Shown here one piece after another: positions 2,223-61,107 of a stretch of DNA of 64,000 nt. The translations under genes were made by a program, and so were the position numbers. Within the stretch, counting starts at the first letter, position 1; every line of letters begins with the position of its first letter. This DNA comes from Candidatus Magasanikbacteria bacterium CG10_big_fil_rev_8_21_14_0_10_36_32. GTDB lineage: Bacteria; Patescibacteriota; Patescibacteriia; Magasanikbacterales; GWA2-37-8. The notes under the pieces are model-generated. The model made no database searches and was not told the DNA's origin. It saw only the letters and a program-made list of their open reading frames with translations. The DNA is taken from contig PFBV01000003.1 of assembly GCA_002778465.1 (NCBI GenBank), positions 303,766 through 367,765 on the forward strand, written 5' to 3'.

Positions 2223-2592
2223 TGAGTAGTTTTTAATAAATGGTGAGGTGTGGATGAATCTGTGCATAACTTGGGCTAAAGGGGGATAGATGTATAGAGC
2301 AGTGTATACAAATCTCACAATTCACATGGTGTTATTAACGGTGTTTTTAGTTTAGTAAAAGTGTTTTTTGTTGTTTTTTATTAAGAAAGTGGTAGAAATA
2401 AACATTGATTCTTATATTTGCGGGGGGGGTAGTGTGGAAAATCAAAGTGGATCAAAATCAGGATGTTTTGAAGGGTTGACAAAATTTCAAAAATATATTA
2501 TACATAATTTATACAATTTAAAATCCTGTTCAGTTTGAACAGGTCTCTGGCCCGGAGTTAGGGCAAAAGGAGCGGGTGATAACAAGCCCGAA

Positions 2593-3324
2593 GTGAATAT
2601 GATGGCGAATCCGTTGGAAGAGTTTAAAGATGTGCCATACGGCCGATGGGCCGCATTGGGACATAAACTTGGAGGTTTGAAGGCAATTGAGGTTATACTC
2701 AAAGACGATGAATTGGCGCGACGAATCAGAAAGCAGATTGCTGATGTTAATGTTACCACTATTATTCTGTCCGACGAGCGGACCCGCTTCTACAAGGAAG
2801 TCTTCGGTCTGACCGTGGATCTCTCCAAGGTGAGGCTCCCGCCCGAAACCGAAGGTTTCGGCTGGACGCTGACCATCGCCAAGGAGCTCGGTGACAAGCC
2901 ACTCGCCACAGTCATGGCCGCCTGTCGGAAGCTGTTCAAGGGCAATGTCTGGCAGTACGCCGACGACCTGGACAATTCCGTCCCGACCAACGACCGCGAC
3001 CCCCGACGCGACGGTTCCTACATCATCCGCGTCAGAGACAGAGTGGAAGCCGACGAGGAGAACAAGAATCTCTCGGCCGACACAGTCAAGTCGCGCAACA
3101 TGGTCACCCTGACACTGTTGGAGCGCATCGTCCTGGAGCTATTCTGCTTCTGGAAGACCGGCAAGCACCTGGACATCCAGAACACCACCCTTTGCTCCGG
3201 TTCGCGCAACTTCGATGGCGGTGTTCCGGGTTGTTGCTTGCGCGGCGGCGAGTTCGAGGTTTGCTGGCGCGGCTCGTCCAGTTGCCGCGGCGCTCTCCGC
3301 GCTCGCGAAGCAGTTTTGACCTAA
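2593..3324 (+). CDS. Conserved hypothetical protein, paralog 1 of 3 in this window. The first ATG is at 2599. The gene lies in a GC-rich island
   Basis: Shares FYKEVFGLTV...GDKPL...NDRDP...GSYIIRVRD..EADEENKNLSAD...TLTLLERIVLELFCFWKTGKHLD...TLCSGSR with ORFs 14464-15051 and 38361-39230. Upstream promoter-like TTGACA (2476-2481), 16-nt spacer, TATATT. GC rises to about 60% from about 2775 onward. Confidence 0.6.
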   Translation: MNMMANPLEEFKDVPYGRWAALGHKLGGLKAIEVILKDDELARRIRKQIADVNVTTIILSDERTRFYKEVFGLTVDLSKVRLPPETEGFGWTLTIAKELGDKPLATVMAACRKLFKGNVWQYADDLDNSVPTNDRDPRRDGSYIIRVRDRVEADEENKNLSADTVKSRNMVTLTLLERIVLELFCFWKTGKHLDIQNTTLCSGSRNFDGGVPGCCLRGGEFEVCWRGSSSCRGALRAREAVLT

Positions 3325-3337
3325 CCCTTTTTCCTTC

Positions 3338-3385
3338 GTTCTTTAATTCTTCGCCCCCTTGCGTCTTGCACAAGGGGGTTTTTTG
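3338..3385 (+). terminator. Rho-independent terminator
   Basis: GCCCCCTTG-cgtcttgc-ACAAGGGGG followed by TTTTTT. Confidence 0.7.
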
Positions 3386-3556
3386 TTGGCTAATTTTAGC
3401 CATCAAAATCATTTATTTTTTGAGGTTTTTAAAAGAGATGAGTTATCCCGAAGTTATACACAGTCTATTGTTCAGAGCATATCAAATTTATGCTATAATA
3501 TAGTATAGTAATTTTTAAAATAAAAATTTATTTAATTTTAATTTAATTTATTCTTT

Positions 3557-6563: not shown

Positions 6564-7459
6564 ATTTTATGTTTAAAAAATTTTTATTTGTTTTGTTAAT
6601 TTGTTTTTTATGGGTTGGAAAAGCGGAAGCTTTTTCGATTAGTCCTTTAAAATATGTGGTTACCGTATCTCCGCGATCAAGCGAAGAGGTAGAAATAAAA
6701 ATTAAAAACGACCAATTAGTTAGCCAGAGATATGTTTTAAAGGTATTAGGAACGAAACAGAACAATCAAGGAGAATTAATTTTTTCAGAAGGTGTCAATC
6801 AAGCTGAAAATTGGGTTAAGCCAGAGAAAAATGTTGTACAAATTGATCCTGGCGAAGAAGTCACGGTTAATTTTTTTATAAAAACTGATTCTTTGGCTGA
6901 GTCTGGCTCATATTTTTTAGGTTTAGCAGCGGAGAATGTTGATTTAGGAGAACGGGAGGTTGGATTATCCGGAGAGTTAGTTTGTTTATTGTTATTACAA
7001 GTGTCTGGTCAGGTGCAGGAAAATTTATCGGTAACAAATTGGCAAACGGAAAATATAACTATAAATAAAATTTGGAACTTTGATCTATCAATTAAAAATA
7101 CATCTGCAGTTGAATTGCCAATTCAGTCAGAATTAATTATAAGAAATTGGCGTAATAAAATTATTTATAGAGAGTTGAATGATTTGGGATTATTGTTGCC
7201 ACAGGCAGACAGAATTTTTCAACAAAAAATTGACATGGTCGGACAAACATTTTTTTCAGGAAGTTATTCCGCGACCTTAAATATAATTTATGGACGAACC
7301 AATCAAATAAAAACTTTGGTTAAAAATTTTTGGAGAATATCTCCTGTTTGGATAATAATTTTAAGTGTAGTTGCAGTTGGAATAATAACTTTATTATATA
7401 GAATAAAAAAGAGAATGGTTGTTAAATTAAAAAAATATATTGAAAATTTTCAAGCATAA
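6557..7459 (+). CDS. Secreted hypothetical protein with C-terminal TM anchor
   Basis: Signal peptide LLICFLWVGKAEA; C-terminal WIIILSVVAVGIITLLYRIKKR anchor; overlaps the upstream gene by 7 nt. Confidence 0.5.
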   Translation: MVNFMFKKFLFVLLICFLWVGKAEAFSISPLKYVVTVSPRSSEEVEIKIKNDQLVSQRYVLKVLGTKQNNQGELIFSEGVNQAENWVKPEKNVVQIDPGEEVTVNFFIKTDSLAESGSYFLGLAAENVDLGEREVGLSGELVCLLLLQVSGQVQENLSVTNWQTENITINKIWNFDLSIKNTSAVELPIQSELIIRNWRNKIIYRELNDLGLLLPQADRIFQQKIDMVGQTFFSGSYSATLNIIYGRTNQIKTLVKNFWRISPVWIIILSVVAVGIITLLYRIKKRMVVKLKKYIENFQA

Positions 7460-14463: not shown

Positions 14464-15051
14464 ATGTCCCATAATCAAAAATTAAATAAAAATTCTGTCT
14501 GGGTTAAGGAATGGATTAAATTTTATAAAGAAATTTTTGGCTTGGCTATTAATGTTTCAAACATTTTTATTCCGCCCAAAATCAAAGGTTTCAACCGACC
14601 AATGATTATTGCTCGTGAGATTGGTGATTCTCCGTTGGAAATGACAATGGTTACTTGTCAAAGATTATTTTCTTACATCAGTTATATTGGTGATAATCCA
14701 GATGAACTAATTTCAGTTACTAATCGTAACCCGCGATATAAAGGTTCCTATGCCATTCGTGTTCGTGACGGAATAGAAGCTGATGAGGAGAACAAAAATC
14801 TTTCGGCTGATGATATTAGATCTCAAAGTATGATTACAATGACTTTGTTGGAACGCATTATTTTAGAGTTGTTTTATTTTTGGAAGACAGGACAACATCT
14901 AGATAATCAACATTGGACTCTTTGTTCCGGCCCACGCAACAAGGCAGGGCAAATTCCATGCTGTTATTGGTACAAAAATATATTTTGGATATTTTGGTAT
15001 AATTCTGCCAATGCAATTGGCGATTTTCGCGCTCGTTCCGTGATTGTTTAA
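14464..15051 (+). CDS. Conserved hypothetical protein, paralog 2 of 3
   Basis: FYKEIFGLAINVS...GDSPL...NRNPRYKGSYAIRVRDGIEADEENKNLSADDI...TMTLLERIILELFYFWKTGQHLD...TLCSGPRN. Own TTGATA-17-TATAGT promoter upstream. Confidence 0.6.
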   Translation: MSHNQKLNKNSVWVKEWIKFYKEIFGLAINVSNIFIPPKIKGFNRPMIIAREIGDSPLEMTMVTCQRLFSYISYIGDNPDELISVTNRNPRYKGSYAIRVRDGIEADEENKNLSADDIRSQSMITMTLLERIILELFYFWKTGQHLDNQHWTLCSGPRNKAGQIPCCYWYKNIFWIFWYNSANAIGDFRARSVIV

Positions 15052-23265: not shown

Positions 23266-24306
23266 ATGTCTCAATGGTTGGATTTTAAAAAAAATTCACG
23301 CTTGCGTGAGATTTATGAAAAAAGATTGCAAATAACGCGTTTAATTCGCGAATTTTTTTGGGCGCAAAATTTTCAAGAAGTGGAAACTCCAATTGCTCTT
23401 AAAAAACCGGGTCAGGAGCCATATTTAAATCCTATTACAACTTTATTTCATAATCCGCTCGGCAAAAAGCATAAGTTTTATTTACAAACTTCACCAGAGT
23501 TTGCTATGAAAAAATTATTAGCGGCCGGTTGGACAAAAATTTTTCAAATCTGTAAATGTTTTCGTGATTTTGAATCTTTTGGCGGAATTCATAATACCGA
23601 GTTTACTATGATTGAATGGTATAGGTCGCCAGGGAAATTAGAAGATATTATGAATGACATTGAAAAACTTTTTAAATTTATTGCCGGTCAATTGAATATA
23701 CAAGAAGTTGAATATAAAAATAAAAAAATAAATGTAATTGGCGAATGGGAGAGATTGTCTATGCGCGAAGTTTGGCAAAAATTTTTAAATGTGGAATTAA
23801 ATAATTATTTAACCATTGAATCAATTTTAAAATTGGTTCAAAGTCGAGATTGGCAAATTTCTGAAAATGACGCATATGAAGATTTGTTTTATAAAATATT
23901 TTTAAATGAAATTGAACCAAAGTTGGGTTTTGAAAAACCGGTAATGATTTATGATTATCCGGAACAGATGACTTCACTTTCTTGTTTATCAGAAGAAGAT
24001 TCGCGTTATGCCGAGCGTTTTGAATTATATATTGGCGGATTGGAATTGGCCAATGCTTTTGGCGAGTTAACTGATGCTGCTGAACAAAAGAAGCGTTTAG
24101 AAGCCGATAAAGAAAAAAGAAAACAATTGAATAAAGAAATTTGGCCAGTTGATTCTGATTTTATTTTTGCTTTAGAATCTGGAATTCCAAAAGCCGGAGG
24201 AATAGCTTTGGGTGTTGATCGTTTAGTAATGCTTTTTACCGGCGCAAAAGATATTAATGAGGTGATTTTTCAGGCAGTCGGGGACCAGCTTGACCCTATA
24301 AAGTAG
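23266..24306 (+). CDS. epmA: EF-P-lysine lysyltransferase EpmA (PoxA/GenX, truncated class II LysRS paralog). Start chosen at the ATG after AAGGAA; the ORF track extends to 23200
   Basis: Class II aaRS motifs: FQICKCFRDFE (motif 2 region), TEFTMIEWY, GGLELANAFGELTD and GIALGVDRLVML (motif 3). No anticodon-binding domain. Confidence 0.75.
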   Translation: MSQWLDFKKNSRLREIYEKRLQITRLIREFFWAQNFQEVETPIALKKPGQEPYLNPITTLFHNPLGKKHKFYLQTSPEFAMKKLLAAGWTKIFQICKCFRDFESFGGIHNTEFTMIEWYRSPGKLEDIMNDIEKLFKFIAGQLNIQEVEYKNKKINVIGEWERLSMREVWQKFLNVELNNYLTIESILKLVQSRDWQISENDAYEDLFYKIFLNEIEPKLGFEKPVMIYDYPEQMTSLSCLSEEDSRYAERFELYIGGLELANAFGELTDAAEQKKRLEADKEKRKQLNKEIWPVDSDFIFALESGIPKAGGIALGVDRLVMLFTGAKDINEVIFQAVGDQLDPIK

Positions 24307-24377
24307 AACTTCGTTCATTTCAGCGTTGACAGAATCATTAAAAAATGTTATCTATTAAACATAGTTCATTAAAATAT

Positions 24378-24430
24378 ATTCCCGGCCTTCGTTGGGTTTT
24401 GTTAGAAACAGATTCCAACGAAGGCCGGGA
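24378..24430. repeat. 17-bp perfect inverted repeat (GC-rich hairpin) at the left edge of GC-rich island 2
   Basis: TTCCCGGCCTTCGTTGG, 19-nt loop, CCAACGAAGGCCGGGAA. Confidence 0.6.
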
Positions 24431-24462
24431 ATTGTCCCGTCTTCCTTCTGTCCGCGGAGCGG

Positions 24463-25107
24463 TTGGAAGTACTCCCTTTTTGGGAGAAGGACTTTGTGGC
24501 CGGTTTGGTTCGCGCGGCCGTGGAGAACACGTTTTTCACCGCCATCTCGGACAAGGACGCTCCGGCTCGTTTCGCCGACGCAGTCGCCAAGTGGCGCAAG
24601 CTCGCCAGCGACCTCGGCTACACCGGCCCGGTGCTCTGGCAGGTGAAGGCAGGATTCACTCTGAAGAAGCACGCCCCGCTTGCCGGTCCTTGCTATAAGC
24701 GGTTCGGCTATCTGCAGAACTGCTGGTCGCTTCAGAACGACGAGCCGACGGTTGGCTCTATGGTATTCTATATCCCGCGCATCGTCGCGACGGAGAAGAA
24801 CACCGAAGAACAGAAGCAGGCGCTGGCTAAGCTTCGCAAGAAGTACGGCCTGCCCGAGAGCCATCTGTCCTCGTTCGGTTCGGCTGCCTTGGTTTCCGGT
24901 CTTATTCTGGCGCATTTCAAGCGCACGGGCGAGCGCGCTCCGTTCAACAGAAATTGGGTTCGCACCGATACCCTGCGCACGGATGACTACCGGCTCGGTC
25001 TCGGCGACTTTGATGAGGACGGGCTCTACTGCGACCACTGCCGCTGGGGTGACGGCTGCGGCGTTAGTCTCGGGGTCTTTCCTTTGGGGGTGGAGCTGGG
25101 TTTCTAG
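24463..25107 (+). CDS. GC-rich (about 60% GC, high GC3) foreign ORF of unknown function. It has no in-frame ATG start (TTG at 24463) and is possibly a gene remnant
   Basis: Coherent high-GC3 codon usage in this frame only. The minus-strand 227-aa ORF is Arg/Leu/Ala-rich antisense noise. The first in-frame ATG is near 24760. Confidence 0.4.
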   Translation: MEVLPFWEKDFVAGLVRAAVENTFFTAISDKDAPARFADAVAKWRKLASDLGYTGPVLWQVKAGFTLKKHAPLAGPCYKRFGYLQNCWSLQNDEPTVGSMVFYIPRIVATEKNTEEQKQALAKLRKKYGLPESHLSSFGSAALVSGLILAHFKRTGERAPFNRNWVRTDTLRTDDYRLGLGDFDEDGLYCDHCRWGDGCGVSLGVFPLGVELGF

Positions 25108-25278
25108 GTCGCTTAGTTCTTTTTGTTAGTTCTTGGGTCCTTGGCGTTTTGGCGCTTAGGATCCTTTTTTATTTCATTTTTGCGGAGTATAATAGCAGTC
25201 TGTTCATTAATTTTATCTATGGTAAATTTGCGCGAAAAAATCAGCGGGCTTAATTTGTCCGTTGTGGAAGAAGGAGTT

Positions 25279-25752
25279 ATGTATTTTTTTATTTACGGTT
25301 TAATCGGCTGGCTGATTGACACTGTTTTTGAATCAATGATTTTTGACCAATTGTTACCCGGTGGAATGTTCCAAAGTTTCCGGCTGCCGATTCCATTTGC
25401 CCCGATTTACGGCTTTGGTGCTTTGGCAATTATTTATCTGACCAAGCGGTTATGGAATAAATCTTTAATATTATCCGTTCCGTTGGCCGGGATTATAGCG
25501 ACGGCGGTAGAATATTTTGGAGGAATAATAACGGTTGCTTTATTTGGACATCGCGCATGGGATTACAGCGGGAGTTTTTTAAATTTACACGGGCACACTA
25601 ATTTATTTTATGCTATTGCCTGGACATTTCTTGGCTGGAGTTTTATTAAGTTCATTCATCCGCCGGTAGAAAAAATAGTAAAAGTTTTTTTAATGCGTCT
25701 GCGTAAAAATATTGATACGGATATTCTTGACAAGGAAATTAAAATTCGTTAA
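25279..25752 (+). CDS. Small polytopic membrane protein, 'putative ABC-transporter type IV' (CmpB-like) family. Start refined to the ATG after GAAGGAG
   Basis: MYFFIYGLIGWLIDTVFE...RLPIPFAPIYGFGALAI is the characteristic motif of this family. A strong SD lies 7 nt upstream of 25279. Confidence 0.5.
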   Translation: MYFFIYGLIGWLIDTVFESMIFDQLLPGGMFQSFRLPIPFAPIYGFGALAIIYLTKRLWNKSLILSVPLAGIIATAVEYFGGIITVALFGHRAWDYSGSFLNLHGHTNLFYAIAWTFLGWSFIKFIHPPVEKIVKVFLMRLRKNIDTDILDKEIKIR

Positions 25753-25786
25753 AATCATATTGCTTTATTATTTAAAATTTTTATTT

Positions 25787-26347
25787 ATGGCTTCTACATC
25801 TGATATCCGCAAAGGAGCGGTGATAAAAAATCAAAATGATTTATATGTAGTGGTTGATTTTCAACATGTAAATCCGGGCAAGGGCGCGGCTTTTGTTCGT
25901 ACTCGTATGAAATCTTTAGCCAATGGAAAAGTAATTGAAAATACTTATAAAAGCGGAGAAAGTTTAGATATTGTTAGTGTTCAGTTTCAGACTATGCAAT
26001 ATTTATACAAAACCGATGGACGCTATGCTTTTATGAATAACCAAACCTATGAACAGATTGAAATGGATGCCGATTTAATTGGTGATGATGCAAAATATTT
26101 AAAAGAAGGGTTAGAATTGGTTGTTGGTTTATATGGAGAACGTCCAGTCAGTGTGCAATTACCGAAAAAAATTCAGTATAAAGTAGTGGAAGCTCCACCG
26201 GCCGTAAAAGGTGACAGCGCTTCCGGCAATGTAACCAAGGAAATTGTTTTAGAAAATGGGTTGCATATTCAAGCACCGATATTTATTAAAGAAGGAGAAG
26301 AAATCTTGGTTAATACGGAAACGGGAGATTATTCCACTAGAGCGTAA
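25787..26347 (+). CDS. efp: Translation elongation factor P (start refined to MASTSDIRKG)
   Basis: MASTSDIRKGAVI...HVNPGKGAAFVRTRMKSL with the conserved lysine in the PGKG loop (the EpmA-type modification site). Confidence 0.9.
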   Translation: MASTSDIRKGAVIKNQNDLYVVVDFQHVNPGKGAAFVRTRMKSLANGKVIENTYKSGESLDIVSVQFQTMQYLYKTDGRYAFMNNQTYEQIEMDADLIGDDAKYLKEGLELVVGLYGERPVSVQLPKKIQYKVVEAPPAVKGDSASGNVTKEIVLENGLHIQAPIFIKEGEEILVNTETGDYSTRA

Positions 26348-38360: not shown

Positions 38361-39230
38361 ATGGCAGCGGAAGATTATTTGGATATTGTTGAATTTGCGA
38401 CTTTAAAAAAGTTGTTGTTAAAAATCGGTTGTGAACTTAGGGCATTTGGAGTAGTTAAGCGAGTTGGACCGGGAGCAAAAATAACTCAAGCGGAATTGAT
38501 GAAGTTGAGAAGTTTGGCTTCCGCCTGTGGAATTATGGCCAATGTTCAAAAGGCACTTTTAACACCGTGGCCGGGACAAAACAATGTTATTCCAAATATT
38601 GAAATTCCACCAGCGATTAATTCGGCTAATAAACCTAACAGTCAGACGAATTTACCGTTTGTTCCAATCGGTTTGATTAATATTTGGAGCAGATTTTATA
38701 AAGAAGTGTTTGGTTTGACAGTTAATATGTCAAAAGTTAAGTTTCCGGTTAGAGTGGAACATTTCGGCTGGACAGTGGTGGTGGCCGAAGAGCTTGGTGA
38801 TAAAACGCTTAATACGGTTATTGAAGTCTGTAAAAAAATGTTTTTGGTTCGGACCTATATTCGTAATGATAATTTGCAGTCAGTTGTAACTTTTAATGAT
38901 CGTGACCCGCAAGTTATTGGTTCTTACGCTGTTTATCCGCGCGCCAATCTCATGGCAGATATTGAAAATCTTAATCTTTCAGCCAATGAAATTAAATTAC
39001 GCAGTATTATAACCATGACTCTTTTGGAACGTTTGATTGTGGAAGTTTTTATTTTTTGGAGCCGCAATAAACATTTGGATGAAAAGACATTTACTTTGTG
39101 TTGCGGTTCACGCGATCTGTGGGATGATGTCCCTGTTTGCGGTTATTTGTCTGGTGCGGTATTTCAAATTACAAGCCGTGTTGCAGGTAATTATGATACT
39201 TATTATCGCGCTCGGACTGTAATTTTTTAA
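38361..39230 (+). CDS. Conserved hypothetical protein, paralog 3 of 3 (longer N-terminal extension)
   Basis: RFYKEVFGLTVNMSKV...GDKTLNTVIEVCKKMF...NDRDPQVIGSYAVYPRA...NLNLSANEI...TMTLLERLIVEVFIFWSRNKHLDE...TLCCGSRD. Confidence 0.6.
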   Translation: MAAEDYLDIVEFATLKKLLLKIGCELRAFGVVKRVGPGAKITQAELMKLRSLASACGIMANVQKALLTPWPGQNNVIPNIEIPPAINSANKPNSQTNLPFVPIGLINIWSRFYKEVFGLTVNMSKVKFPVRVEHFGWTVVVAEELGDKTLNTVIEVCKKMFLVRTYIRNDNLQSVVTFNDRDPQVIGSYAVYPRANLMADIENLNLSANEIKLRSIITMTLLERLIVEVFIFWSRNKHLDEKTFTLCCGSRDLWDDVPVCGYLSGAVFQITSRVAGNYDTYYRARTVIF

Positions 39231-55022: not shown

Positions 55023-56423
55023 ATGATTAAAATTACAAAGAAATTTTATCCCCTATTTTTAGTAGTGGTTTTTTTATTATTTTCAGGTTTTGGCTGTAAA
55101 GGATTATCACAAACTGAATTGCAAGCTACAAAATCTGTGGAATTGGAATACTGGACAGTTTATGATGATGTTGATGCAATGCAAGCTCAAATTAATAATT
55201 ATCGAGCGCAAAGACCGTATTTGACTGTAACAATAAGACAATTGCGAGCTGATGAGTTATATCCGCGTTTGATTGAAGCTTTAGCGGAAGATAAGGGTCC
55301 TGATATTGTTTCGGTTCAGGCAAAAAATATTCGCAGTTTTCAAAGTAAATTGGCAACCATGCCATCCAGTGTAAAAGACACTACAATTACAGTTCAAAAA
55401 AATGTGGTTGGTACAGAAACAATAGTTAATACCGCTTCAATAAATTTACCCTCGGTTAGTCAGATTGACAGAGAATATGTTCAAACAGTTAAAAAGGATG
55501 TAATTGTTGATAACAAAATTTATGGTTTGCCAATGTCTTTAGATACTATGGCAATTTATTATAATAAAGATCTATTAGATCGTTCCGGCGTGCCGGAACC
55601 GCCAACAAATTGGAACGATTTTCAGGCGGCGGTTAGAAAGATTACAAAATACAACAAAGAAACAGGACAACTTATTCAGTCCGGTGCGGCTTTGGGCAGT
55701 AGTGCGAATATAGAAAATTTTGATGATATTTTATATATTCTTTTTAAACAAAGCGATGTGGATTTTATAGATAGAAATGGCCGGGTCGCCTTTCATGTTG
55801 TGCCAAGTAATTTAAAAAGTTCCGAGTCACCGTCTACAGGAGTGATGAGTTTTTATACCGATTTTGCTAATTCTGCTCGCGATACATATACTTGGAATTC
55901 CCAAATGGAAAATTCTTTAGACAGTTTTACCAAAGGGAAAGTCGCTTTCTTTTTTGGGTATAGTTATCATAATGGTATAATTAAGACTCGCGCTCCGCAA
56001 CTTAATTATGGCGTTACTCCGATGATTCAGCTTAATGCTGAAAAACCAGTTAACGCGGCGGATTATTGGATTCAAGCGGTGGTGCAGAAATCAAAAAAAC
56101 AAAATGAAGCATGGGGTTTGATAAATTATTTAACTCACAGTTCAAAAGCGGTTGAAGAATATTTAACTGCCACCAAGCGACCTGCCGCTATGCGTTCATT
56201 AATTAATAAACAAAAAGAAGATGTTGATTTGTCTCCATTTGCCGGGCAATTACTTATCGCTGAAAATTGGTATCGTGGTAAAAATTATGATGGTGCCTCG
56301 CAAGCTCTTGGCGCTATGGTTGAAGAATGGTTAAATACACCGATTACCGATGCCAGTCGAGTAGCTCAGTGGCAACAAGATGTTTTGAATCGCGCCGCTT
56401 CGAAAGTTAATCAAACTTTTTAG
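55023..56423 (+). CDS. Extracellular solute-binding lipoprotein (ABC transporter SBP family 1-like)
   Basis: Lipobox LFSGFGC; size and pattern are consistent with a sugar-type SBP. Confidence 0.45.
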   Translation: MIKITKKFYPLFLVVVFLLFSGFGCKGLSQTELQATKSVELEYWTVYDDVDAMQAQINNYRAQRPYLTVTIRQLRADELYPRLIEALAEDKGPDIVSVQAKNIRSFQSKLATMPSSVKDTTITVQKNVVGTETIVNTASINLPSVSQIDREYVQTVKKDVIVDNKIYGLPMSLDTMAIYYNKDLLDRSGVPEPPTNWNDFQAAVRKITKYNKETGQLIQSGAALGSSANIENFDDILYILFKQSDVDFIDRNGRVAFHVVPSNLKSSESPSTGVMSFYTDFANSARDTYTWNSQMENSLDSFTKGKVAFFFGYSYHNGIIKTRAPQLNYGVTPMIQLNAEKPVNAADYWIQAVVQKSKKQNEAWGLINYLTHSSKAVEEYLTATKRPAAMRSLINKQKEDVDLSPFAGQLLIAENWYRGKNYDGASQALGAMVEEWLNTPITDASRVAQWQQDVLNRAASKVNQTF

Positions 56424-56424
56424 T

Positions 56425-56865
56425 ATGAAATCCATTTTAAAATTAATTGTTATTTTAATTTGTTTACAGTTTTTATTGTTACCGTCGGATGCGGTTTTTG
56501 CTCAAGAAACAAGCGCTCAGTCGTCTGGTTTTCTTCCGGAATGTATATTAAACGGGGATATTAGCGGGGGACAATGCGGTGACAGTGCGGATATATTTTT
56601 ATGGTTAGCAATTAATGTTGGACGCTATTTGTTTTCGTTTATTGGAGCTTTGGCTTTATTATTTTTTGTTTATGGTGGTGTAATTTTAATTACCTCTCAA
56701 GGTAATCGTGAAAATGTCAGCAAGGGAACCAAAGCAATGGTGGCCGCCGTTACAGGTTTGGTGATTGCTTTTAGTGGTTATGCTTTAATTACTTTCCTTA
56801 GTCAATCGGTTGGAGTTAAATCTGAATTTTTATTAACTCCACAAAATACTGCTACTAAAAAATAA
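56425..56865 (+). CDS. Pilin-like array member 1: secreted two-helix protein (VirB2/TrbC-like topology)
   Basis: Signal peptide ...DAVFA|QE. Helix 1 LFSFIGALALLFFVYGGVILITSQGNRENVSKGTK, then helix 2 AMVAAVTGLVIAFSGYALITF. Confidence 0.5.
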   Translation: MKSILKLIVILICLQFLLLPSDAVFAQETSAQSSGFLPECILNGDISGGQCGDSADIFLWLAINVGRYLFSFIGALALLFFVYGGVILITSQGNRENVSKGTKAMVAAVTGLVIAFSGYALITFLSQSVGVKSEFLLTPQNTATKK

Positions 56866-56869
56866 ATTT

Positions 56870-57346
56870 ATGAAATTTTTAAGAGTTAAAATTTTAATTT
56901 GTTTGTTGGTTAGTTTATTTTTGGTTGCCAGTGTAAAAGCTGAAGAATGTGACCCTCTTTATCAATCATGTGAAGGACAGTCAGTTGAATCTGCTGAACA
57001 AGAATTGCAAGATATTTTGGGTGAATCACAATCGGTTCAAGAACCAAGCACTCAAGCAGAAGTGTATGAATTTAAAAATATTAAAAAACAAGCGGCCAGT
57101 TTGAATCCGTTGAATATTTCTGGTCCGTCTGATTTGTTTGCTAATGCTATAAATTTAATGATGGCCTTTATTGGTTCAATCGCCATCCTTTTATATATTT
57201 ACGCTGGATTTTTGTGGATGTCTGCCGCTGGTAATTCTGAACGGGTCGGTAAAGCTAAAACTATTCTTATTTGGACTACTTTAGGTGCGGTTGCTATGGG
57301 TGCCAGTTATATGATAGTTAAAACCGTGCTTGAGAAAGTGGGTTAA
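56870..57346 (+). CDS. Pilin-like array member 2
   Basis: Signal ...VKA|EE; IAILLYIYAGFLWMSAAGNSERVGKAKTILIWTTLGAVAMGASYMIV. Confidence 0.55.
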   Translation: MKFLRVKILICLLVSLFLVASVKAEECDPLYQSCEGQSVESAEQELQDILGESQSVQEPSTQAEVYEFKNIKKQAASLNPLNISGPSDLFANAINLMMAFIGSIAILLYIYAGFLWMSAAGNSERVGKAKTILIWTTLGAVAMGASYMIVKTVLEKVG

Positions 57347-57356
57347 TTATTATTTT

Positions 57357-57719
57357 ATGAAAAAAATAATATTATTTTTGACAATAGTTAGCTGTATATG
57401 GACAGCGATGCCTTTGAGCACAACCACAGTTAATGCGGCTGAACCAGAAACCGTGAAATTAGAAAATCCTTTAACAGTTGATGCTAATCCGTCGTCAATA
57501 ATTGGTTTGTTTATCAAAGCAATCTTAGGAATAGTTGGTGGGTTGGCTTTGGTTATGGCTGTGTATGGCGGTTTTCAATGGCTGACGGCCGCAGGCAACA
57601 AAGAAAAGATAGATAGTGGTAGTAAAACTATGCTTTGGGCGGTGGTTGGTTTGATACTTACTCTAAGCAGTTATTTATTGGTGGATACTTTCTTGAATTT
57701 TTTAAAGGGTGGCAGATAA
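57357..57719 (+). CDS. Pilin-like array member 3 (start refined)
   Basis: Signal ...VNA|AE; ILGIVGGLALVMAVYGGFQWLTAAGNKEKIDSGSKTMLWAVVGLILTLSSYLLV. Confidence 0.55.
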   Translation: MKKIILFLTIVSCIWTAMPLSTTTVNAAEPETVKLENPLTVDANPSSIIGLFIKAILGIVGGLALVMAVYGGFQWLTAAGNKEKIDSGSKTMLWAVVGLILTLSSYLLVDTFLNFLKGGR

Positions 57720-57805
57720 AAATTAAGATTGTGCGATGTTTCGTTTATTGTTATAATAAATATAAGTTAAAATATGATAAATTTTACTGGAAAGGGGGTG
57801 ACAAT

Positions 57806-58195
57806 ATGAGCAAATTATCAGTATATATAGCGTTTATTTTGGTTGCAGCTTGTGCTATGTTTGTTTTGACGCCAGTTTTAGCCGCTGATCCTATTACTGC
57901 AGGAGATCTTGGTTTAAGTTATGGCGCGGAAACAGGTTTGGGTACCAAAGATATCCGTACCACCGTTGCGCAGGTAATCAAAGTGGCGATGGGTTTATTG
58001 GGTATCGTGGCTGTCGTTATAATTTTAATCGGCGGTTTCACTTGGATGACTGCCGGTGGTAATGAAGATAAGGTCTCCGAAGCGAAGAAATGGATTTTCT
58101 CCGGTGTTATCGGTTTGGCTATTATCTTGTCGGCTTATGCTTTAACCAGCTTTATTATCAATCAGTTGGTCAACGCTACTACTAGTACGATATAA
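57806..58195 (+). CDS. Pilin-like array member 4 (start refined to the ATG after the AAAGGGGGTG SD)
   Basis: Signal ...VLA|ADP; GLLGIVAVVIILIGGFTWMTAGGNEDKVSEAKKWIFSGVIGLAIILSAYALTSF. Confidence 0.6.
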   Translation: MSKLSVYIAFILVAACAMFVLTPVLAADPITAGDLGLSYGAETGLGTKDIRTTVAQVIKVAMGLLGIVAVVIILIGGFTWMTAGGNEDKVSEAKKWIFSGVIGLAIILSAYALTSFIINQLVNATTSTI

Positions 58196-58204
58196 ACTTT
58201 TTTT

Positions 58205-58235
58205 ATCAGGGGGTTCGCGCGCGCAACCCCCTGAT
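58205..58235. terminator. Palindromic GC hairpin flanked by a T-run and an A-run (bidirectional terminator-like) splitting the array
   Basis: ATCAGGGGGTTGCGCGCGCAACCCCCTGAT-type palindrome (ATCAGGGGGTTCGCGCGCGCAACCCCCTGAT) with TTTTTTTT before and AAAAAA after. Confidence 0.5.
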
Positions 58236-58289
58236 AAAAAATTGGATTATGAACTTTTTAATGAAGATTTCATAATCCAGTTAAATCCT

Positions 58290-58712
58290 ATGAGTTTAAA
58301 CCGGAAAATTTTTTTATTCATTATTGTGACGGCCATCAGTGTCGGTTTTTTGTTGAATGTCAGAATGGTAAGGGGAGCGGATGATTATGGATTTGAACAA
58401 ACCGCACAAGGAACTGACTTGCCGGCTTTATCAATCAGTAAAGGTACACCAGAATCATTGGCTGAAATAATTGTAAAGCGAGTTTTATTTTTTGTTGGAA
58501 CAATTTTCTTTTTATTGATTCTTTATGCGGGAATAAGTTGGATGACTGCTGCTGGTTCCACTGAAAAAGTTAATACTGCTAAAACTATTTTAGAAACAGC
58601 TATTATTGGTTTGTTGGTTATTACCGCTTCCTATGCGATTTCTAATTATATTTTTGAAAAATTTACCGGTGTAAACAAAACTTCTACAGATATTCCCACT
58701 GCCACAGAATAA
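58290..58712 (+). CDS. Pilin-like array member 5 (start refined)
   Basis: Signal ...VRGA|DD; FFVGTIFFLLILYAGISWMTAAGSTEKVNTAKTILETAIIGLLVITASYAISNY. Confidence 0.55.
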   Translation: MSLNRKIFLFIIVTAISVGFLLNVRMVRGADDYGFEQTAQGTDLPALSISKGTPESLAEIIVKRVLFFVGTIFFLLILYAGISWMTAAGSTEKVNTAKTILETAIIGLLVITASYAISNYIFEKFTGVNKTSTDIPTATE

Positions 58713-58727
58713 TAATCATTAAAATTT

Positions 58728-59753
58728 ATGAGTTTTGGTTTTAAAGTTAAATTAACGATGTTGTTGGCAGCTGTTGGTATAATGACAGCTTCTGTTTTTT
58801 GTTATGCTGCAGATTTTGGTTTAGGAGAAGCCGGTTCTGTTTCTGGGCTGACAAAAAATAAAATTACCGAAGCTGGCAGTATTCCCGCTGTTTTGGGTGA
58901 TTTGGTTGGTATAGCGCTTTCATTATTAGGAATTTTTTTCTTTATTTTAGTTTTGTATGCCGGTTTTATTTGGATGACCGCCGCCGGTTCTGGTGAACAG
59001 GTTGATAAAGCAAAAAAGATTTTAATGTCTGGCGCTATTGGTTTGGTAATAGTTTTATCAGCTTATACAATTACCAGTTATGTTTTTACGGAATTTTTAG
59101 CTGGCGCGCCGACCGGACAAACAGGTGGTGATGTTTGCAAAACAGGGGCAGATGGACAAGATTGTGGTGATAATTCTCTTTGTTTGAATAAAAAATGTGT
59201 TTCGGAGTGTGTCTATACATATGGAACAAATGCTAAATGCAAAGCGGCAGGCAGTTGTGCGGGTGTGGAATTAACTGGTTTTTGTCCGGGCGGAACTAAT
59301 AATAAATGTTGCGTGCCTCAGTATGATTATGATTTTGTGCACAAAGTTAGTGGAGGAACATCTGATACCGGATCAGTAATGATATTTGAATCATGTTCAA
59401 CTAAAGGTGGTTATTGTATTAAGCAAGGTGATGCTGGTTGTGGAACATATCCTGGTTATAGTGAAATTCCTGGAAATTTTTCTGATTGTTCAGGTGAAAC
59501 TTCATCTTGTTGTGTTAACAGTTGTCGCACAAAAGGCGGTATGTGTCTCAGTGCCAATGAATGCAGTAATGCGTCAGGAAAAGAAGAGGCTGAATCTTGT
59601 GGAGATGGACAAGTTTGTTGTGTAACCTGCGTATCTCAAGGTGGAAGTTGTTTTTTTTCTGGTAGTGAATCTTGCAGTGGCAAAGTATTGAGTGGTTCTA
59701 AAAATGGTTGTGGTACCGGTTTAAGTTGTTGTATAGGCGGATTTTTACAATAA
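58728..59753 (+). CDS. Pilin-like array member 6 with long Cys-rich C-terminal extension (about 3.5 tandem roughly 38-aa CC-containing repeats)
   Basis: ILVLYAGFIWMTAAGSGEQVDKAKKILMSGAIGLVIVLSAYTITSY, then CCVPQ...KGGYCIKQGDAGCG, SSCCVNSCRTKGGMCLSANECSNASG, CCVTCVSQGGSCFFSGSESCSG and CCIGG. Confidence 0.6.
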   Translation: MSFGFKVKLTMLLAAVGIMTASVFCYAADFGLGEAGSVSGLTKNKITEAGSIPAVLGDLVGIALSLLGIFFFILVLYAGFIWMTAAGSGEQVDKAKKILMSGAIGLVIVLSAYTITSYVFTEFLAGAPTGQTGGDVCKTGADGQDCGDNSLCLNKKCVSECVYTYGTNAKCKAAGSCAGVELTGFCPGGTNNKCCVPQYDYDFVHKVSGGTSDTGSVMIFESCSTKGGYCIKQGDAGCGTYPGYSEIPGNFSDCSGETSSCCVNSCRTKGGMCLSANECSNASGKEEAESCGDGQVCCVTCVSQGGSCFFSGSESCSGKVLSGSKNGCGTGLSCCIGGFLQ

Positions 59754-59781
59754 TGTTTTTAAACTTCTTTTTAAATAATTT

Positions 59782-60276
59782 ATGAAAAAACTTTTTGTTC
59801 AATTACTCATTGTCACTTGTTTATTTATACCGACCATGGCATTAGCTGATACTTTTGGTTCAGGCTTATTAAGTCAATCGGTTCAAGGTGTTGGTTTAGA
59901 ACAGAATTTAGAAAATAGCGTGGCCAATGTCATTAGTACAGTTTCAACCGTGGTCGGCACGATATTTTTAATCTTGACTGTGGTGGCAGGAATTATGTGG
60001 ATGACCGCCGCTGGCAATGAAGATAAAATTTCTAAAGCTAAACAAATGTTGGCCGCCGCCGCCGTCGGTTTATTTATTGTTATGTCGGCTTACACAATTA
60101 CTTATTTTGTCACCAAAAAAGTTGGTAATGCTTCTGGTGGTGGCACAGGAGAAACGACTTGTAGTTGCGCCGGATGTTATTGTTCCACAGTGACAGCGTG
60201 TACAAGTGATGTGGGTACAGCATTGACAGGTACTACTTGTTCAGGAGTGTGTTGTCAACCAACTTTTGCTGATTAA
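59782..60276 (+). CDS. Pilin-like array member 7 with short Cys-rich tail
   Basis: Signal ...ALA|DT; IFLILTVVAGIMWMTAAGNEDKISKAKQMLAAAAVGLFIVMSAYTITYF, then TCSCAGCYCSTVTACTSD...CSGVCCQP. Confidence 0.6.
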   Translation: MKKLFVQLLIVTCLFIPTMALADTFGSGLLSQSVQGVGLEQNLENSVANVISTVSTVVGTIFLILTVVAGIMWMTAAGNEDKISKAKQMLAAAAVGLFIVMSAYTITYFVTKKVGNASGGGTGETTCSCAGCYCSTVTACTSDVGTALTGTTCSGVCCQPTFAD

Positions 60277-60283
60277 ATTTTTT

Positions 60284-60652
60284 ATGAAGAAATTTATTGT
60301 TTTATTTATCGCTATATTGTTACTGTTGTCGCCGGCTATGTCGGCTGCTGAGGGTTTGGGTGATGCCGCAGGAAAACTTGGTTCGTTTCAGACAGGTGGA
60401 TTAAGCAGTGATTTGGGTGGCACGGCGCAAAATGTGGTTAAGGCCATATTTTGGGTGGTTGGCACAACTTTTCTTTTATTATCAGTTTATGGTGGTATTG
60501 TTTGGATTAAAGCGGCTGGCCGAGAGGAAGAAGTAAATCGCGCTAAAAAAATTATTGTTGCTGCTGTTATAGGATTAGTCGTTGTTTTTGCGTCTTATGC
60601 AATAACAAATTTTGTAATGAACAGGGTACAAGGAATTGAAACTACAGAATAA
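60284..60652 (+). CDS. Pilin-like array member 8 (start refined)
   Basis: Signal ...MSA|AEG; FLLLSVYGGIVWIKAAGREEEVNRAKKIIVAAVIGLVVVFASYAITNF. Confidence 0.55.
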   Translation: MKKFIVLFIAILLLLSPAMSAAEGLGDAAGKLGSFQTGGLSSDLGGTAQNVVKAIFWVVGTTFLLLSVYGGIVWIKAAGREEEVNRAKKIIVAAVIGLVVVFASYAITNFVMNRVQGIETTE

Positions 60653-60681
60653 AATTTTTTAAAGTAATTAAATTTATTTTT

Positions 60682-61095: not shown

Positions 61096-61107
61096 TTATT
61101 ATAAAAT

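What the first reader, a model, noticed from the sequence alone, without database searches (positions are those of the whole stretch)
24378..25135. GC-rich island 2 inserted between epmA and efp. It carries a start-less high-GC ORF bounded by a 17-bp GC hairpin
Between epmA (ends 24306) and the membrane-protein/efp genes (from 25279) lies a 750-bp segment of about 60% GC. It opens with the perfect inverted repeat TTCCCGGCCTTCGTTGG...CCAACGAAGGCCGGGAA. It contains one coherent high-GC3 reading frame (24463-25107, 214 aa, ending ...DGLYCDHCRWGDGCGVSLGVFPLGVELGF). That frame has no in-frame ATG or convincing RBS until about 24760, so it may be a decaying remnant of foreign origin. Its position splits the functionally linked epmA-efp pair.
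Basis: partly seen in the sequence, partly recalled or inferred. Interest (0 to 1): 0.55.

Follow-up and report, generated by a model that had tools for sequence, protein, structure and literature searches.

The report
Acquired DGR variable-protein gene cassette
The GC-rich island between epmA and efp is an intact, horizontally acquired gene of the kind that diversity-generating retroelements hypermutate in candidate-phyla-radiation (CPR) bacteria, and its "boundary hairpin" is the main stem of a conserved structured mRNA leader, so it is a known kind of element with some undescribed details, not a decaying remnant.

Summary
The GC island, the 17-bp hairpin and the reading frame are all real.

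**What the ORF is.** It belongs to a Patescibacteria-only family of 349 clusters at 50% identity. In 12 other loci its last ~40 codons are a DGR variable region (VR): a template repeat, Avd and reverse transcriptase lie next to it, and mismatches fall on template adenines.

**The window copy is not start-less.** GTG 24496, with a Shine-Dalgarno site, sits where homologues have their ATG. About 35 N-terminal codons were deleted, and many natural family members lack them too.

**It is under purifying selection.**
- dN/dS is 0.13 outside the VR and 2.1 inside it.
- The window's own branch has 20 synonymous and 6 nonsynonymous changes.
- Substitutions drift towards AT (20 GC>AT, 4 AT>GC).

**It is an insertion.** Three relatives have epmA directly followed by efp.

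**The hairpin and the repeat.** The hairpin is stem P1 of a conserved, covarying 5' leader that matches no Rfam family. The proposed target-site duplication lies inside that conserved leader, so it is not a duplication.

**Status of diversification.** No template repeat, Avd or reverse transcriptase occurs in about 82 kb. The VR is identical in five assemblies. The copy is therefore a remote or orphaned target.

The parts
24326..24354 (+). Cassette promoter: -35 TTGACA (24326-24331), 17-nt spacer, TG-extended -10 TATCTA (24349-24354). The -10 box is weaker than the TATAAT of homologues.
   Evidence: Read from the sequence. It aligns with TTGACA-N17-TGnTATAAT in homologous loci. The strict sigma-70 scan does not call it, because the -10 box ends in A.
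24352..24489 (+). Conserved structured 5' leader of the variable-protein mRNA.
   Evidence: nhmmer with a 4-locus leader profile gives E 1.6e-8. The 18-locus alignment is A5. Folding gives -65 kcal/mol, z = -7.1. No Rfam family matches.
24378..24432 (+). Leader helix P1.
   Evidence: P1 is conserved in 16 of 18 leaders, with 94.8% of cells paired and 10 of 20 pairs changed on both sides; 0 of 500 shuffles reach these values. Covariance model R1 scores 66.7 bits on + and 45.6 on -, and gives a single site in the window.
24445..24486 (+). Leader helices P3 (24445-24469) and P4 (24472-24486), just upstream of the Shine-Dalgarno site.
   Evidence: MFE fold. In P3 all 9 pairs show changes on both sides across loci. 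P4 changes from UUCCCA/UGGGAA in homologues to CUCCC/GGGAG in the window.
24496..25107 (+). Variable-protein gene, 203 aa, GTG start with SD GGAGAAGGA at 24483-24491. It lacks about 35 N-terminal codons present in its closest homologues.
   Evidence: Identical to the JGI gene call P0001. More than 148 homologues exist, all Patescibacteria hypothetical proteins, in 349 clusters at 50% identity. dN/dS outside the VR is 0.126. AF2 pLDDT is 90.2. No Pfam, NCBIfam or PHROG match.
24970..25086 (+). Variable region (VR), the stretch that matches the DGR template repeat in homologous loci.
   Evidence: It aligns with the L004 TR/VR block. dN/dS is 2.13 over 37 codons against L007. Against the heterologous TR, mismatches are 17/28 at TR-adenine columns and 20/86 elsewhere, p = 4e-4.
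25087..25134 (+). IMH-like segment (GGGGTGGAGCTGGG...) running across the stop codon (25105-25107) into a 3' UTR with CTYGG/CTTAG repeats.
   Evidence: TR-VR homology ends at this point in L004. CTYGG occurs 61 times against 9.2 +/- 3 expected in the 90 nt after the stop of 37 loci; the reverse-complement motif occurs 4 times. It occurs 35 times in VR flanks and 0 times in TR flanks of 11 DGR loci.
25135..25170 (+). Intrinsic terminator: a 12-bp stem with one mismatch (25135-25164), then TTTTTT (25165-25170).
   Evidence: RNA fold. The same hairpin plus T-run ends the cassette in L006, L001 and L004, and the window-L007 alignment runs into it as far as the 1,076-bp L007 contig reaches.
23266..24306 (+). 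Left flank: epmA (EF-P lysyl-transferase-type class II aaRS paralogue).
   Evidence: Pfam tRNA-synt_2, E 7.8e-54. In relatives it is directly followed by efp.
25219..26347 (+). Right flank: CmpB-type membrane-protein gene (25219-25752, native-like GC), efp promoter TTGACA-17-TAAAAT (25727-25755) and efp (25787-26347).
   Evidence: Pfam and gene calls. The efp promoter is conserved with L054 and L055. The CmpB gene is absent from this site in the relatives.

Best explanation
Window 24326-25170 is a self-contained transcription unit. It consists of a promoter, a structured 5' leader, a 203-codon gene and an intrinsic terminator. The gene belongs to a candidate-phyla-radiation (Patescibacteria) family of target genes of diversity-generating retroelements (DGRs).

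**How the family works (shown in homologous loci).** An Avd/reverse-transcriptase pair copies a ~120-nt template repeat (TR) into cDNA, misreading template adenines. That cDNA overwrites the last ~40 codons of the gene, the variable region (VR). This rewrites a patch near the C-terminus of the protein.

**History of the window copy (inferred).**
- It entered this AT-rich Magasanikbacteria-like genome by horizontal transfer, between epmA and the efp promoter.
- It has since been kept under purifying selection while its codons drift towards AT.
- It lost about 35 dispensable N-terminal codons, through a deletion between two AAGGAnT sites. This placed a GTG directly behind the original ribosome-binding site.

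**The hairpin (structure shown, function inferred).** It is helix P1 of the conserved mRNA leader. Most likely it is a post-transcriptional control or stability element for the variable-protein mRNA.

**Present state (partly shown).** No TR, Avd or RT lies within about 82 kb, and the VR is invariant across assemblies. The copy is therefore either a remote target of a DGR elsewhere in the genome or an orphaned, now fixed variant. I lean towards the second (about 55:45).
For: **Family membership**
- 148 homologues at E <= 0.01, 47-84% identical among those listed, all from Patescibacteria or CPR sources.
- 349 clusters at 50% identity in 1.84 billion representatives.

**The family is a DGR target**
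- L004 carries bAvd + RVT_1 beside the gene, with a TR at 7107-7227 matching two VRs.
- In 12 loci, TR-VR mismatches number 13-21 at TR adenines, 0 at C or G, and 0-3 at T.
- Avd and/or RT lie within 2.5 kb of the gene in 14 loci.

**DGR signature in the window copy**
- dN/dS is 2.13 in the VR and 0.126 in the rest, against L007.
- Mismatches to the L004 TR are 61% at TR-adenine columns and 23% elsewhere, p = 4e-4.
- The VR codons are rich in C, G, D, Y, H, R and S.

**The gene is functional**
- The ORF is intact.
- The window's branch has 20 synonymous and 6 nonsynonymous changes.
- AF2 pLDDT is 90.2.
- Many family members start at profile positions 41-47, as this copy does.

**Start codon**
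- Leader homology runs to 24489, with P3 and P4 retained through compensatory changes.
- The SD and GTG align with the SD and ATG of homologues.

**Acquisition**
- The site is empty in L054, L055 and L056.
- GC3 is 0.77 against about 0.3.
- 20 GC>AT against 4 AT>GC changes.
- Closely related cassettes sit in unrelated contexts: SpoIID/RuvB in L001 and L004, UvrD/S12 in L006.

**Leader**
- P1 is 94.8% paired, with 10 of 20 pairs changed on both sides and many G-U pairs.
- 0 of 500 shuffles reach the observed values, and slid controls reach at most 60% paired against 87.8%.
- The covariance model hits only upstream of family genes and scores 20-40 bits higher on the + strand.
Against: - No cognate TR, Avd or RT was found in the 64-kb window, in 10 kb upstream, or in 8.6 kb downstream to the contig end.
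- The island, including the VR, is base-for-base identical in four other assemblies from different samples. There is therefore no sign of ongoing diversification.
- The -10 box (TATCTA) violates TAnnnT.
- The window copy has a Cys-codon insertion in the otherwise conserved YLQDW motif.
- The predicted fold has no significant neighbour in the PDB or BFVD, so the C-type-lectin fold typical of DGR targets is not demonstrated.
- The family is GC-richer than its host in almost every locus. High GC alone therefore does not prove recent transfer.
- The function of the leader is inferred from structure conservation only.
Confidence: 0.9

Rival explanations
1. Active remote target. A DGR (TR + Avd + RT) elsewhere in the same genome, more than about 35-48 kb away, still rewrites this VR. 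The identical assemblies would then reflect one dominant clone.
For: - Non-adjacent and remote (>100 kb) targets are documented for cellular DGRs (PMC5758913). Metagenome surveys miss them (PMC8144416).
- Many family copies with at least 6 kb of flank have no RT nearby.
- The IMH-like segment, part of the CTYGG array and the terminator hairpin are retained.
- The gene is under purifying selection.
Against: - The VR is identical in five assemblies from four to five samples.
- No TR was found in about 82 kb.
- Several CTYGG units are degraded to CTTAG.
Confidence: 0.4
2. One reading: a start-less, decaying remnant (pseudogene) of a foreign gene.
For: - About 35 N-terminal codons are missing relative to the closest homologues.
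- The -10 box is weak.
- There is a Cys insertion in a conserved motif.
- No DGR lies nearby, and the VR is static.
Against: - The 203-codon frame is intact, with an SD and a GTG at the ancestral start position.
- The window's branch has 20 synonymous and 6 nonsynonymous changes, roughly dN/dS 0.1.
- All family-invariant residues are kept.
- Short-N-terminus members are common in the family.
- Leader helices are maintained by compensatory changes.
Confidence: 0.07
3. The island is a small mobile element whose ends are marked by the hairpin and by a 9-bp target-site duplication, GTTCATTAA. It would have been inserted by a transposase or integrase-like mechanism, in the manner of a MITE or an attC cassette.
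For: - The site is empty in relatives.
- The same cassette occurs in different contexts in different genomes.
- The 9-mer lies on both sides.
- An imperfect 21-nt direct repeat lies at 24299-24319 and 25188-25208.
Against: - The left GTTCATTAA lies inside the leader that is homologous across loci, not outside the element.
- The 9-mer is over-represented in the window, and a chance match between the flanks is about 5%.
- By my own estimate (not a tool result), the 15/21 repeat is at chance level once all position pairs are counted.
- The hairpin has G-U pairs and a strand-specific covariance-model score, sits downstream of a promoter, and has no partner at the other end.
- No transposase or integrase lies adjacent.
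Confidence: 0.05
4. The hairpin acts at the DNA level, or serves the upstream gene. It might be a terminator of epmA, a cruciform, or a protein-binding palindrome, and not a leader of the variable-protein mRNA.
For: - It lies 72 nt after the epmA stop codon.
- In the window it is a perfect palindrome, so it folds on both strands: -65 kcal/mol on + and -57.9 on -.
- The simple terminator scan lists parts of it.
Against: - No T-run follows it on either strand.
- In other loci it sits upstream of the same gene family whatever the upstream neighbour is.
- In those loci it relies on G-U pairs that exist only on the + strand.
- It lies about 25 nt downstream of a conserved -10 box.
Confidence: 0.08

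Closest known systems
DGR variable (target) proteins of CPR bacteria: 'clade 2' DGR targets of Roux et al. 2021 (PMC8144416) and the unclassified 'UVR' VR classes of Wu et al. 2018 (PMC5758913)
   Same: - Patescibacteria only; about 240 aa; no recognisable domain, TM segment or Pfam hit.
- The VR occupies the last ~40 codons.
- In homologous loci the gene is followed by TR, Avd and RT, with adenine-specific TR/VR mismatches.
   Different: - The window copy has no TR, Avd or RT within about 82 kb, and its VR is static across assemblies.
- It is N-terminally shortened.
- I could not map it onto a named UVR class or target cluster in those papers.
Bordetella phage BPP-1 Mtd, Treponema TvpA, Thermus TaqVP and archaeal AvpA (C-type-lectin-fold DGR variable proteins)
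   Same: - C-terminal VR diversified from AAC-type template codons.
- An IMH-type boundary where VR/TR homology ends, beginning with a G-rich run.
   Different: - No sequence match to the PDB.
- No significant Foldseek match: best E is 0.29 and 1.6. CLec-fold proteins, including Mtd, appear only among insignificant hits.
- The VR ends LG(V/C)FPLGVE.
Non-adjacent or remote DGR target genes, e.g. the Treponema denticola DGR with seven non-adjacent targets (as cited in PMC5758913)
   Same: A target-type gene located far from any RT, and a family in which adjacent and non-adjacent copies coexist.
   Different: No cognate TR has been identified at all, so 'remote' cannot be told apart from 'orphan'.
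Structured bacterial 5' UTR elements: riboswitches, protein-binding leaders and 5' stabiliser hairpins such as the ompA leader (named from my own knowledge, not tested here)
   Same: - A promoter-proximal, strand-specific, covarying multi-helix leader directly upstream of the SD.
- The invariant purine strand AAGAAGGCYGGGAA can pair with either an upstream or a downstream pyrimidine strand, read by eye from the sequences.
   Different: - No Rfam family matches.
- No ligand, binding protein or terminator/antiterminator logic is identified.
- P1 is an unusually long (20-26 bp) near-perfect helix.

Membership tests
DGR target (variable-protein) gene | A VR at the 3' end of the ORF, matched by a TR that differs from it at template adenines only | tested here: inconclusive
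   - Met for the family: in 12 loci, 13-21 mismatches at TR adenines, 0 at C or G, 0-3 at T.
- For the window copy no TR exists in about 82 kb.
- Only an indirect signature is available: 61% against 23% mismatch to a heterologous TR, p = 4e-4.
DGR target (variable-protein) gene | A DGR reverse transcriptase (and usually Avd) encoded in the same genome | tested here: inconclusive
   - tblastn with the L004 RT and Avd found no hit in the window, L058/L059 or L064/L065.
- About 57 kb of the contig and the rest of the genome could not be read. The contig is not in the scannable metagenome collection.
DGR target (variable-protein) gene | Hypervariability confined to the VR, with a conserved scaffold | tested here: met
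   Against the closest homologue, L007, dN/dS is 2.13 over 37 VR codons and 0.126 over 167 other codons. The family alignment shows the same pattern.
DGR target (variable-protein) gene | An IMH at the 3' end of the VR (G/C-rich start, differing from IMH* of the TR). A GC-rich inverted repeat downstream is found in only about 34% of DGRs. | tested here: inconclusive
   - The window has GGGGTGGAGCTGGG at the point where L004 VR/TR homology ends. The TR there reads GATGGTGGGAAAAT.
- The only downstream inverted repeat in the window is the terminator hairpin at 25135-25164.
- The additional GC-rich hairpin of L001 and L004 is absent.
- Feature definitions come from PMC5758913.
DGR target (variable-protein) gene | The VR is displayed on a C-type-lectin (or Ig-like) fold | tested here: inconclusive
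   - The AF2 models are confident (pLDDT 90.2 and 93.6).
- Foldseek against the PDB and BFVD gives nothing at E <= 0.001. CLec proteins appear only among hits at E 0.1-8.
- The profile search against PDB sequences gives nothing.
Pseudogene / decaying gene remnant | A disrupted frame or relaxed constraint (dN/dS near 1) on the lineage | tested here: not met
   The 203-codon frame is intact. The window's branch has 20 synonymous and 6 nonsynonymous changes, and family-invariant residues are retained.
Transposable or insertion element with a target-site duplication | Direct repeats that immediately flank the element and lie outside the sequence shared with other copies | tested here: not met
   The left GTTCATTAA (24364) lies within the leader shared with other loci. 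The 9-mer is common in the window. No transposase is adjacent.
Horizontally acquired genomic islet | Absent from the syntenic site in relatives, and compositionally deviant | tested here: met
   - The site is empty in L054, L055 and L056.
- GC3 is 0.77 against 0.25-0.37.
- There is a GC>AT substitution bias on the window's branch.
- Caveat: the family is GC-richer than its host almost everywhere.
Any Rfam RNA family (for the leader hairpin) | A score at or above the family's gathering threshold | tested here: not met
   The only matches are sub-threshold microRNA-precursor models: 33 bits against a gathering score of 90. Nothing was found in homologous loci except tRNAs.

The most novel reading that the evidence does not exclude
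CPR DGR target cassettes of this family may carry two cis-elements that I found described neither in the DGR papers I read nor in Rfam.

1. A roughly 140-nt structured 5' leader. It has a 20-26-bp helix P1, built around the invariant strand AAGAAGGCYGGGAA, plus helices P3 and P4. It could be a new riboswitch-like or protein-bound regulator of variable-protein expression.
2. A strand-specific array of CTYGG repeats. [quoted passage not shown] It could be the signal that marks a gene as a DGR recipient, including remote ones.

In addition, the protein scaffold has no structural neighbour in the PDB. It may therefore be a DGR display fold other than the C-type lectin or Ig folds.
Probability: 0.35. 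Interest if true: 0.6.

Novelty: new member of a known kind. Interest (0 to 1): 0.4.

Why it matters
**What is explained.** A striking compositional anomaly inside a conserved translation-factor locus turns out to be an acquired DGR target gene, which is a known class. The case shows that such GC-rich islets in CPR genomes can be intact genes even when standard gene callers pick the wrong frame. Two of the other assemblies annotate a 117-aa or an antisense 227-aa ORF here.

**What may be new.** Three leads are cheap to test.
- A conserved structured leader specific to this target family.
- A CTYGG repeat array that distinguishes VR flanks from TR flanks.
- A confidently predicted scaffold without a known structural neighbour.

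If the CTYGG array is the recipient signal, it would help to find remote DGR targets that current surveys miss (PMC8144416).

**Also useful.** The locus is a natural example of a DGR target that may have been 'frozen' after losing its retroelement.

Tried and rejected
**Searches that found nothing**
- A TR in the window: blastn-short and an IUPAC pattern allowing A at every non-A VR position found only the VR itself.
With 23 fixed bases it found nothing, not even the VR. The source contig is therefore not in that collection and the scan is uninformative.
- RT/Avd tblastn on the window and on the flanking loci L058, L059, L064 and L065 gave nothing.
- Pfam, NCBIfam and PHROGs, a profile search against PDB sequences and three Foldseek searches gave no significant match.
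- Rfam gave only sub-threshold microRNA-hairpin matches.
- Literature searches for a described leader or riboswitch on DGR targets found nothing relevant.

**Ideas tested and dropped**
- Homology between island 1 and island 2 proteins, suggested by a similar Cys/Gly-rich tail: BLASTP E = 1.8 and hhalign probability 0.07. Rejected.
- Adenine avoidance as the cause of the high GC: A and T are both depleted and AT skew is small. Not supported.
- A shared AAGAAGGC hairpin between the leader and TR-flank hairpins: seen in only some loci and looks like generic terminator composition. Dropped.
- The 21-nt imperfect direct repeat at 24299-24319 and 25188-25208 as an old duplication: 15 of 21 matches is what chance gives once all flank positions are considered (plus my own estimate).
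- The MAFFT alignment A3 of the 5' ends mis-aligned the window. It was replaced by the nhmmer result and the leader alignment.

**Limit of the tools**
- Walking further along the source contig was not possible, because only window-encoded proteins may be looked up.
Full report
**1. The observation**

The composition step is real. In 200-nt windows GC is 0.58-0.64 from 24400 to 25100, against 0.25-0.45 on either side. Only one other stretch of the 64-kb window behaves this way, at 2501-3500. The perfect 17-nt inverted repeat lies at 24379-24395 and 24415-24431, extends to 26 nt at 88% complementarity, and is unique in the window. The frame 24463-25107 is open. Pfam confirms epmA upstream and a CmpB-type membrane protein and efp downstream. 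GC3 of the ORF is 0.77, against 0.25-0.37 in its neighbours.

**2. What the ORF is**

A search of 5.8 billion proteins returned 148 homologues at E <= 0.01. The 120 listed reach 47-84% identity. Those that carry a source name are 'hypothetical proteins', and every organism named is Patescibacteria, a CPR lineage or simply 'bacterium'. None has a Pfam domain. An exhaustive profile search found 349 clusters at 50% identity. The alignment shows a conserved scaffold, then a ~30-residue hypervariable patch rich in C, G, D, Y, H, R and S, then a conserved LG(V/C)FPLGVE tail.

The locus of homologue P0007 (L004, GCA_028688375.1) has bAvd and an RVT_1 reverse transcriptase immediately downstream. It also has a three-copy 121-nt repeat: the ends of two paralogous genes and one intergenic copy next to Avd. 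Aligning them shows 16/28 and 14/28 mismatches at adenines of the intergenic copy and 0/86 elsewhere. This is the defining signature of a diversity-generating retroelement (DGR), with its template repeat (TR) and variable regions (VR).

The same pattern holds in 12 loci: 13-21 mismatches at TR adenines, none at C or G, and 0-3 at T. Avd and/or RT lie within 2.5 kb of the gene in 14 loci. Other copies with at least 6 kb of flank have none. The family is therefore a genuine DGR target family, with both adjacent and non-adjacent copies.

This fits published surveys. CPR DGRs form their own clade, and their targets lack recognisable domains (PMC8144416). Their VRs were left as unclassified 'UVR' classes, and non-adjacent or remote targets are known (PMC5758913).

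**3. The window copy is an intact gene**

The region upstream of the homologues' ATG is conserved at the DNA level across loci. A profile of four leaders matches the window at 24352-24489 (E 1.6e-8). In the 18-locus leader alignment, the window's GGAGAAGGACTTTGTG lines up with the homologues' GGGAAAGGAG-N6-ATG. GTG 24496 therefore occupies the ancestral start position behind the ancestral Shine-Dalgarno site. It is also the start the JGI annotation chose (P0001, 203 aa).

Relative to the closest homologue, the window lacks about 105 nt that encode residues 2-36. That homologue is L007: 87% nucleotide identity over the aligned 823 columns, and 84% amino-acid identity. The sequence AAGGAnT occurs both at the ribosome-binding site and at codon ~33 in L007, which suggests a deletion between these short repeats (inference).

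The missing residues form two to three N-terminal helices in the full-length AF2 model (pLDDT 93.6). Many natural family members begin at profile positions 41-47, as the window copy does. The truncated protein is still predicted confidently (pLDDT 90.2).

Against L007, dN/dS is 0.126 over the 167 codons outside the VR and 2.13 over the 37 VR codons. Polarised with three outgroups, the window's own branch carries 20 synonymous and 6 nonsynonymous substitutions. It also carries 20 GC>AT against 4 AT>GC changes. The gene has thus been kept by selection while drifting towards the host's AT-rich composition.

Three things count against full health. The -10 box, TATCTA, violates TAnnnT. A Cys codon is inserted in the conserved YLQDW motif. 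Some 3' repeat units are degraded.

**4. It is an insertion, but there is no target-site duplication**

Three relatives were found through EpmA. Two are Magasanikbacteria-type MAGs (metagenome-assembled genomes), at 73% and 71% identity. The third, at 57%, is a MAG whose record title reads 'uncultured Gammaproteobacteria bacterium', which may be a mislabel. All three keep the order S6-SSB-S18-EpmA-EFP-DUF1294. Only about 116, 500 and 28 bp separate epmA from efp, with neither the variable-protein gene nor the CmpB gene between them. The efp promoter (TTGACA-17-TAAAAT, 25727-25755) is conserved with L054 and L055. Everything from 24307 to about 25726 is therefore extra in the window lineage. 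Whether the cassette and the CmpB gene arrived together is unknown.

Closely related cassettes lie in unrelated contexts elsewhere.

The proposed duplication fails. The left GTTCATTAA is part of the AGTTCWTTT motif conserved in most leaders. The 9-mer occurs four times on the + strand of the window against 0.74 expected, and a chance match between the flanks is about 5%.

The family gene is GC-richer than its flanks in almost every locus with enough flank to measure, by 0.09-0.26; one locus shows no difference. High GC is therefore a family trait, and I cannot explain it. Both A and T are depleted, so adenine avoidance is not the cause.

**5. The hairpin**

RNAalifold predicts it as the consensus structure. 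Single-sequence folding recovers it in 16 of 18 loci.

On the 18-locus alignment:
- 94.8% of P1 cells pair.
- 10 of 20 P1 pairs show changes on both sides.
- Several positions are predominantly G-U.
- No shuffle out of 500 reaches the observed values.
- Sliding the partners drops pairing from 87.8% to 60% or less.

P3 (all 9 pairs with double changes) and P4 are also supported. In the window both are kept through compensatory changes.

A covariance model of P1 hits only upstream of family genes. It always scores 20-40 bits higher on the sense strand, and it gives a single site in the window. The element lies about 25 nt downstream of a conserved TG-extended -10 box, so it belongs to the 5' UTR. 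No Rfam family matches, and I found no paper describing it.

By eye, the invariant purine strand AAGAAGGCYGGGAA can pair either with the upstream pyrimidine strand (P1) or with a downstream one. The downstream pairing is the only option in L012 and L017, which lack the upstream arm. This hints at a switch, but the function is inferred, not shown.

**6. The 3' end**

VR/TR homology ends at the G-rich GGGGTGGAG, which is IMH-like. From there, CTYGG units recur across the stop codon and into the 3' UTR.
- There are 61 in the first 90 nt after the stop of 37 loci, against 9.2 +/- 3 expected. The reverse-complement motif occurs 4 times.
- There are 35 beside VRs and 0 beside TRs in 11 DGR loci.

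The cassette ends in an intrinsic terminator at 25135-25170. The same terminator is conserved in the closest homologues whose contigs extend that far.

**7. Is this VR still being diversified?**

No RT, Avd or TR occurs in the window, in 10 kb upstream (L058), or in 8.6 kb downstream to the contig end (L065). Four other assemblies of the same organism are identical to the window at every base over 4-8.5 kb: JGI 3300004208, ENA ERZ27293400, ENA ERZ27293414 and Logan SRR6240784. Three of them span the whole island; the ERZ27293414 contig begins only 248 nt upstream of efp.

The VR nevertheless carries the historical signature. It mismatches the heterologous L004 TR at 61% of TR-adenine columns against 23% of other columns (p = 4e-4), and its dN/dS is 2.1. 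The copy is either a remote target of an unseen DGR or an orphaned, frozen variant. The data at hand lean slightly towards the latter.

**8. Fold**

Both AF2 models are confident, yet neither has a significant neighbour in the PDB or BFVD. The best E-values are 0.29 and 1.6 (PDB) and 0.05 (BFVD). C-type-lectin proteins, including Mtd, appear only among insignificant hits. The profile search against PDB sequences is empty. Membership of the C-type-lectin fold is therefore undecided.

**9. Verdict**

The island is a new member of a known kind: a DGR variable-protein gene cassette of CPR bacteria, horizontally acquired and now remote or orphaned. The idea of foreign origin is supported. The ideas of a remnant, a missing start and a target-site duplication are not.

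The parts that may be new are the structured leader, the VR-specific CTYGG array and a scaffold without known structural relatives.

Noticed in passing
window 2540-3400 (ORF 2593-3324); paralogues at 14464-15051 and 38361-39230: 'Island 1' is a second GC-rich ORF (GC3 0.71) with a Cys/Gly/Ser/Arg-rich tail. It has two AT-rich paralogues (GC3 about 0.3, 47-49% identical) in the same window, and none of the three is annotated. It shows no detectable homology to the island-2 family (hhalign probability 0.07), and no TR-like repeat was found in the window.
   Followed up: partly
window 25087-25134; 3' flanks of the family in L001-L051: [quoted passage not shown] There are 61 against 9.2 expected in 37 loci, and 35 beside VRs against 0 beside TRs. 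This is a possible recipient-marking signal for DGR homing. In the window several units are degraded to CTTAG.
   Followed up: partly
L014:789-1832: The family ORF ends with the TR-type sequence (cctctgATGGTttgtaaaaa) and is followed at once by Avd. Most likely the assembler collapsed VR and TR. This is a caution for DGR loci on short metagenome contigs.
   Followed up: no
all family loci: The variable-protein gene is GC-richer than its flanks in almost every locus with measurable flank, by 0.09-0.26 whatever the host GC (0.28-0.55); L018 is the one exception, at 0.53 for both. A and T are both depleted, so adenine avoidance does not explain it. The cause is unexplained.
   Followed up: partly
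window 24720-24731: The window copy reads YLQNCW where all close homologues read YLQDW. This is an in-frame Cys-codon insertion in a nearly invariant motif.
   Followed up: no
L060:2559-2912, L063:1426-1779 and L061:2569-3252 (same DNA as window 24345-25038): Gene callers in other assemblies annotate a 117-aa out-of-frame ORF or the antisense 227-aa ORF in place of the real gene. High-GC islets in low-GC genomes mislead ORF calling.
   Followed up: yes
window about 56400-62000 (L065:7739-14819): A tandem array of about ten small genes with T4SS_pilin (PF18895) hits.
   Followed up: no
window 24364, 25202, 47561, 56194 (+) and 43115 (-): GTTCATTAA occurs four times on the + strand (0.74 expected), and GTTCATT occurs 15 times on + against 2 on -. 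It may be a common motif near transcription starts in this organism.
   Followed up: partly
L055:6040-6520: One relative has a 500-bp epmA-efp spacer holding a small ORF (about 60 aa, hydrophobic N-terminus, Cys-rich C-terminus). The epmA-efp junction therefore seems to be a recurrent landing site for small genes.
   Followed up: no
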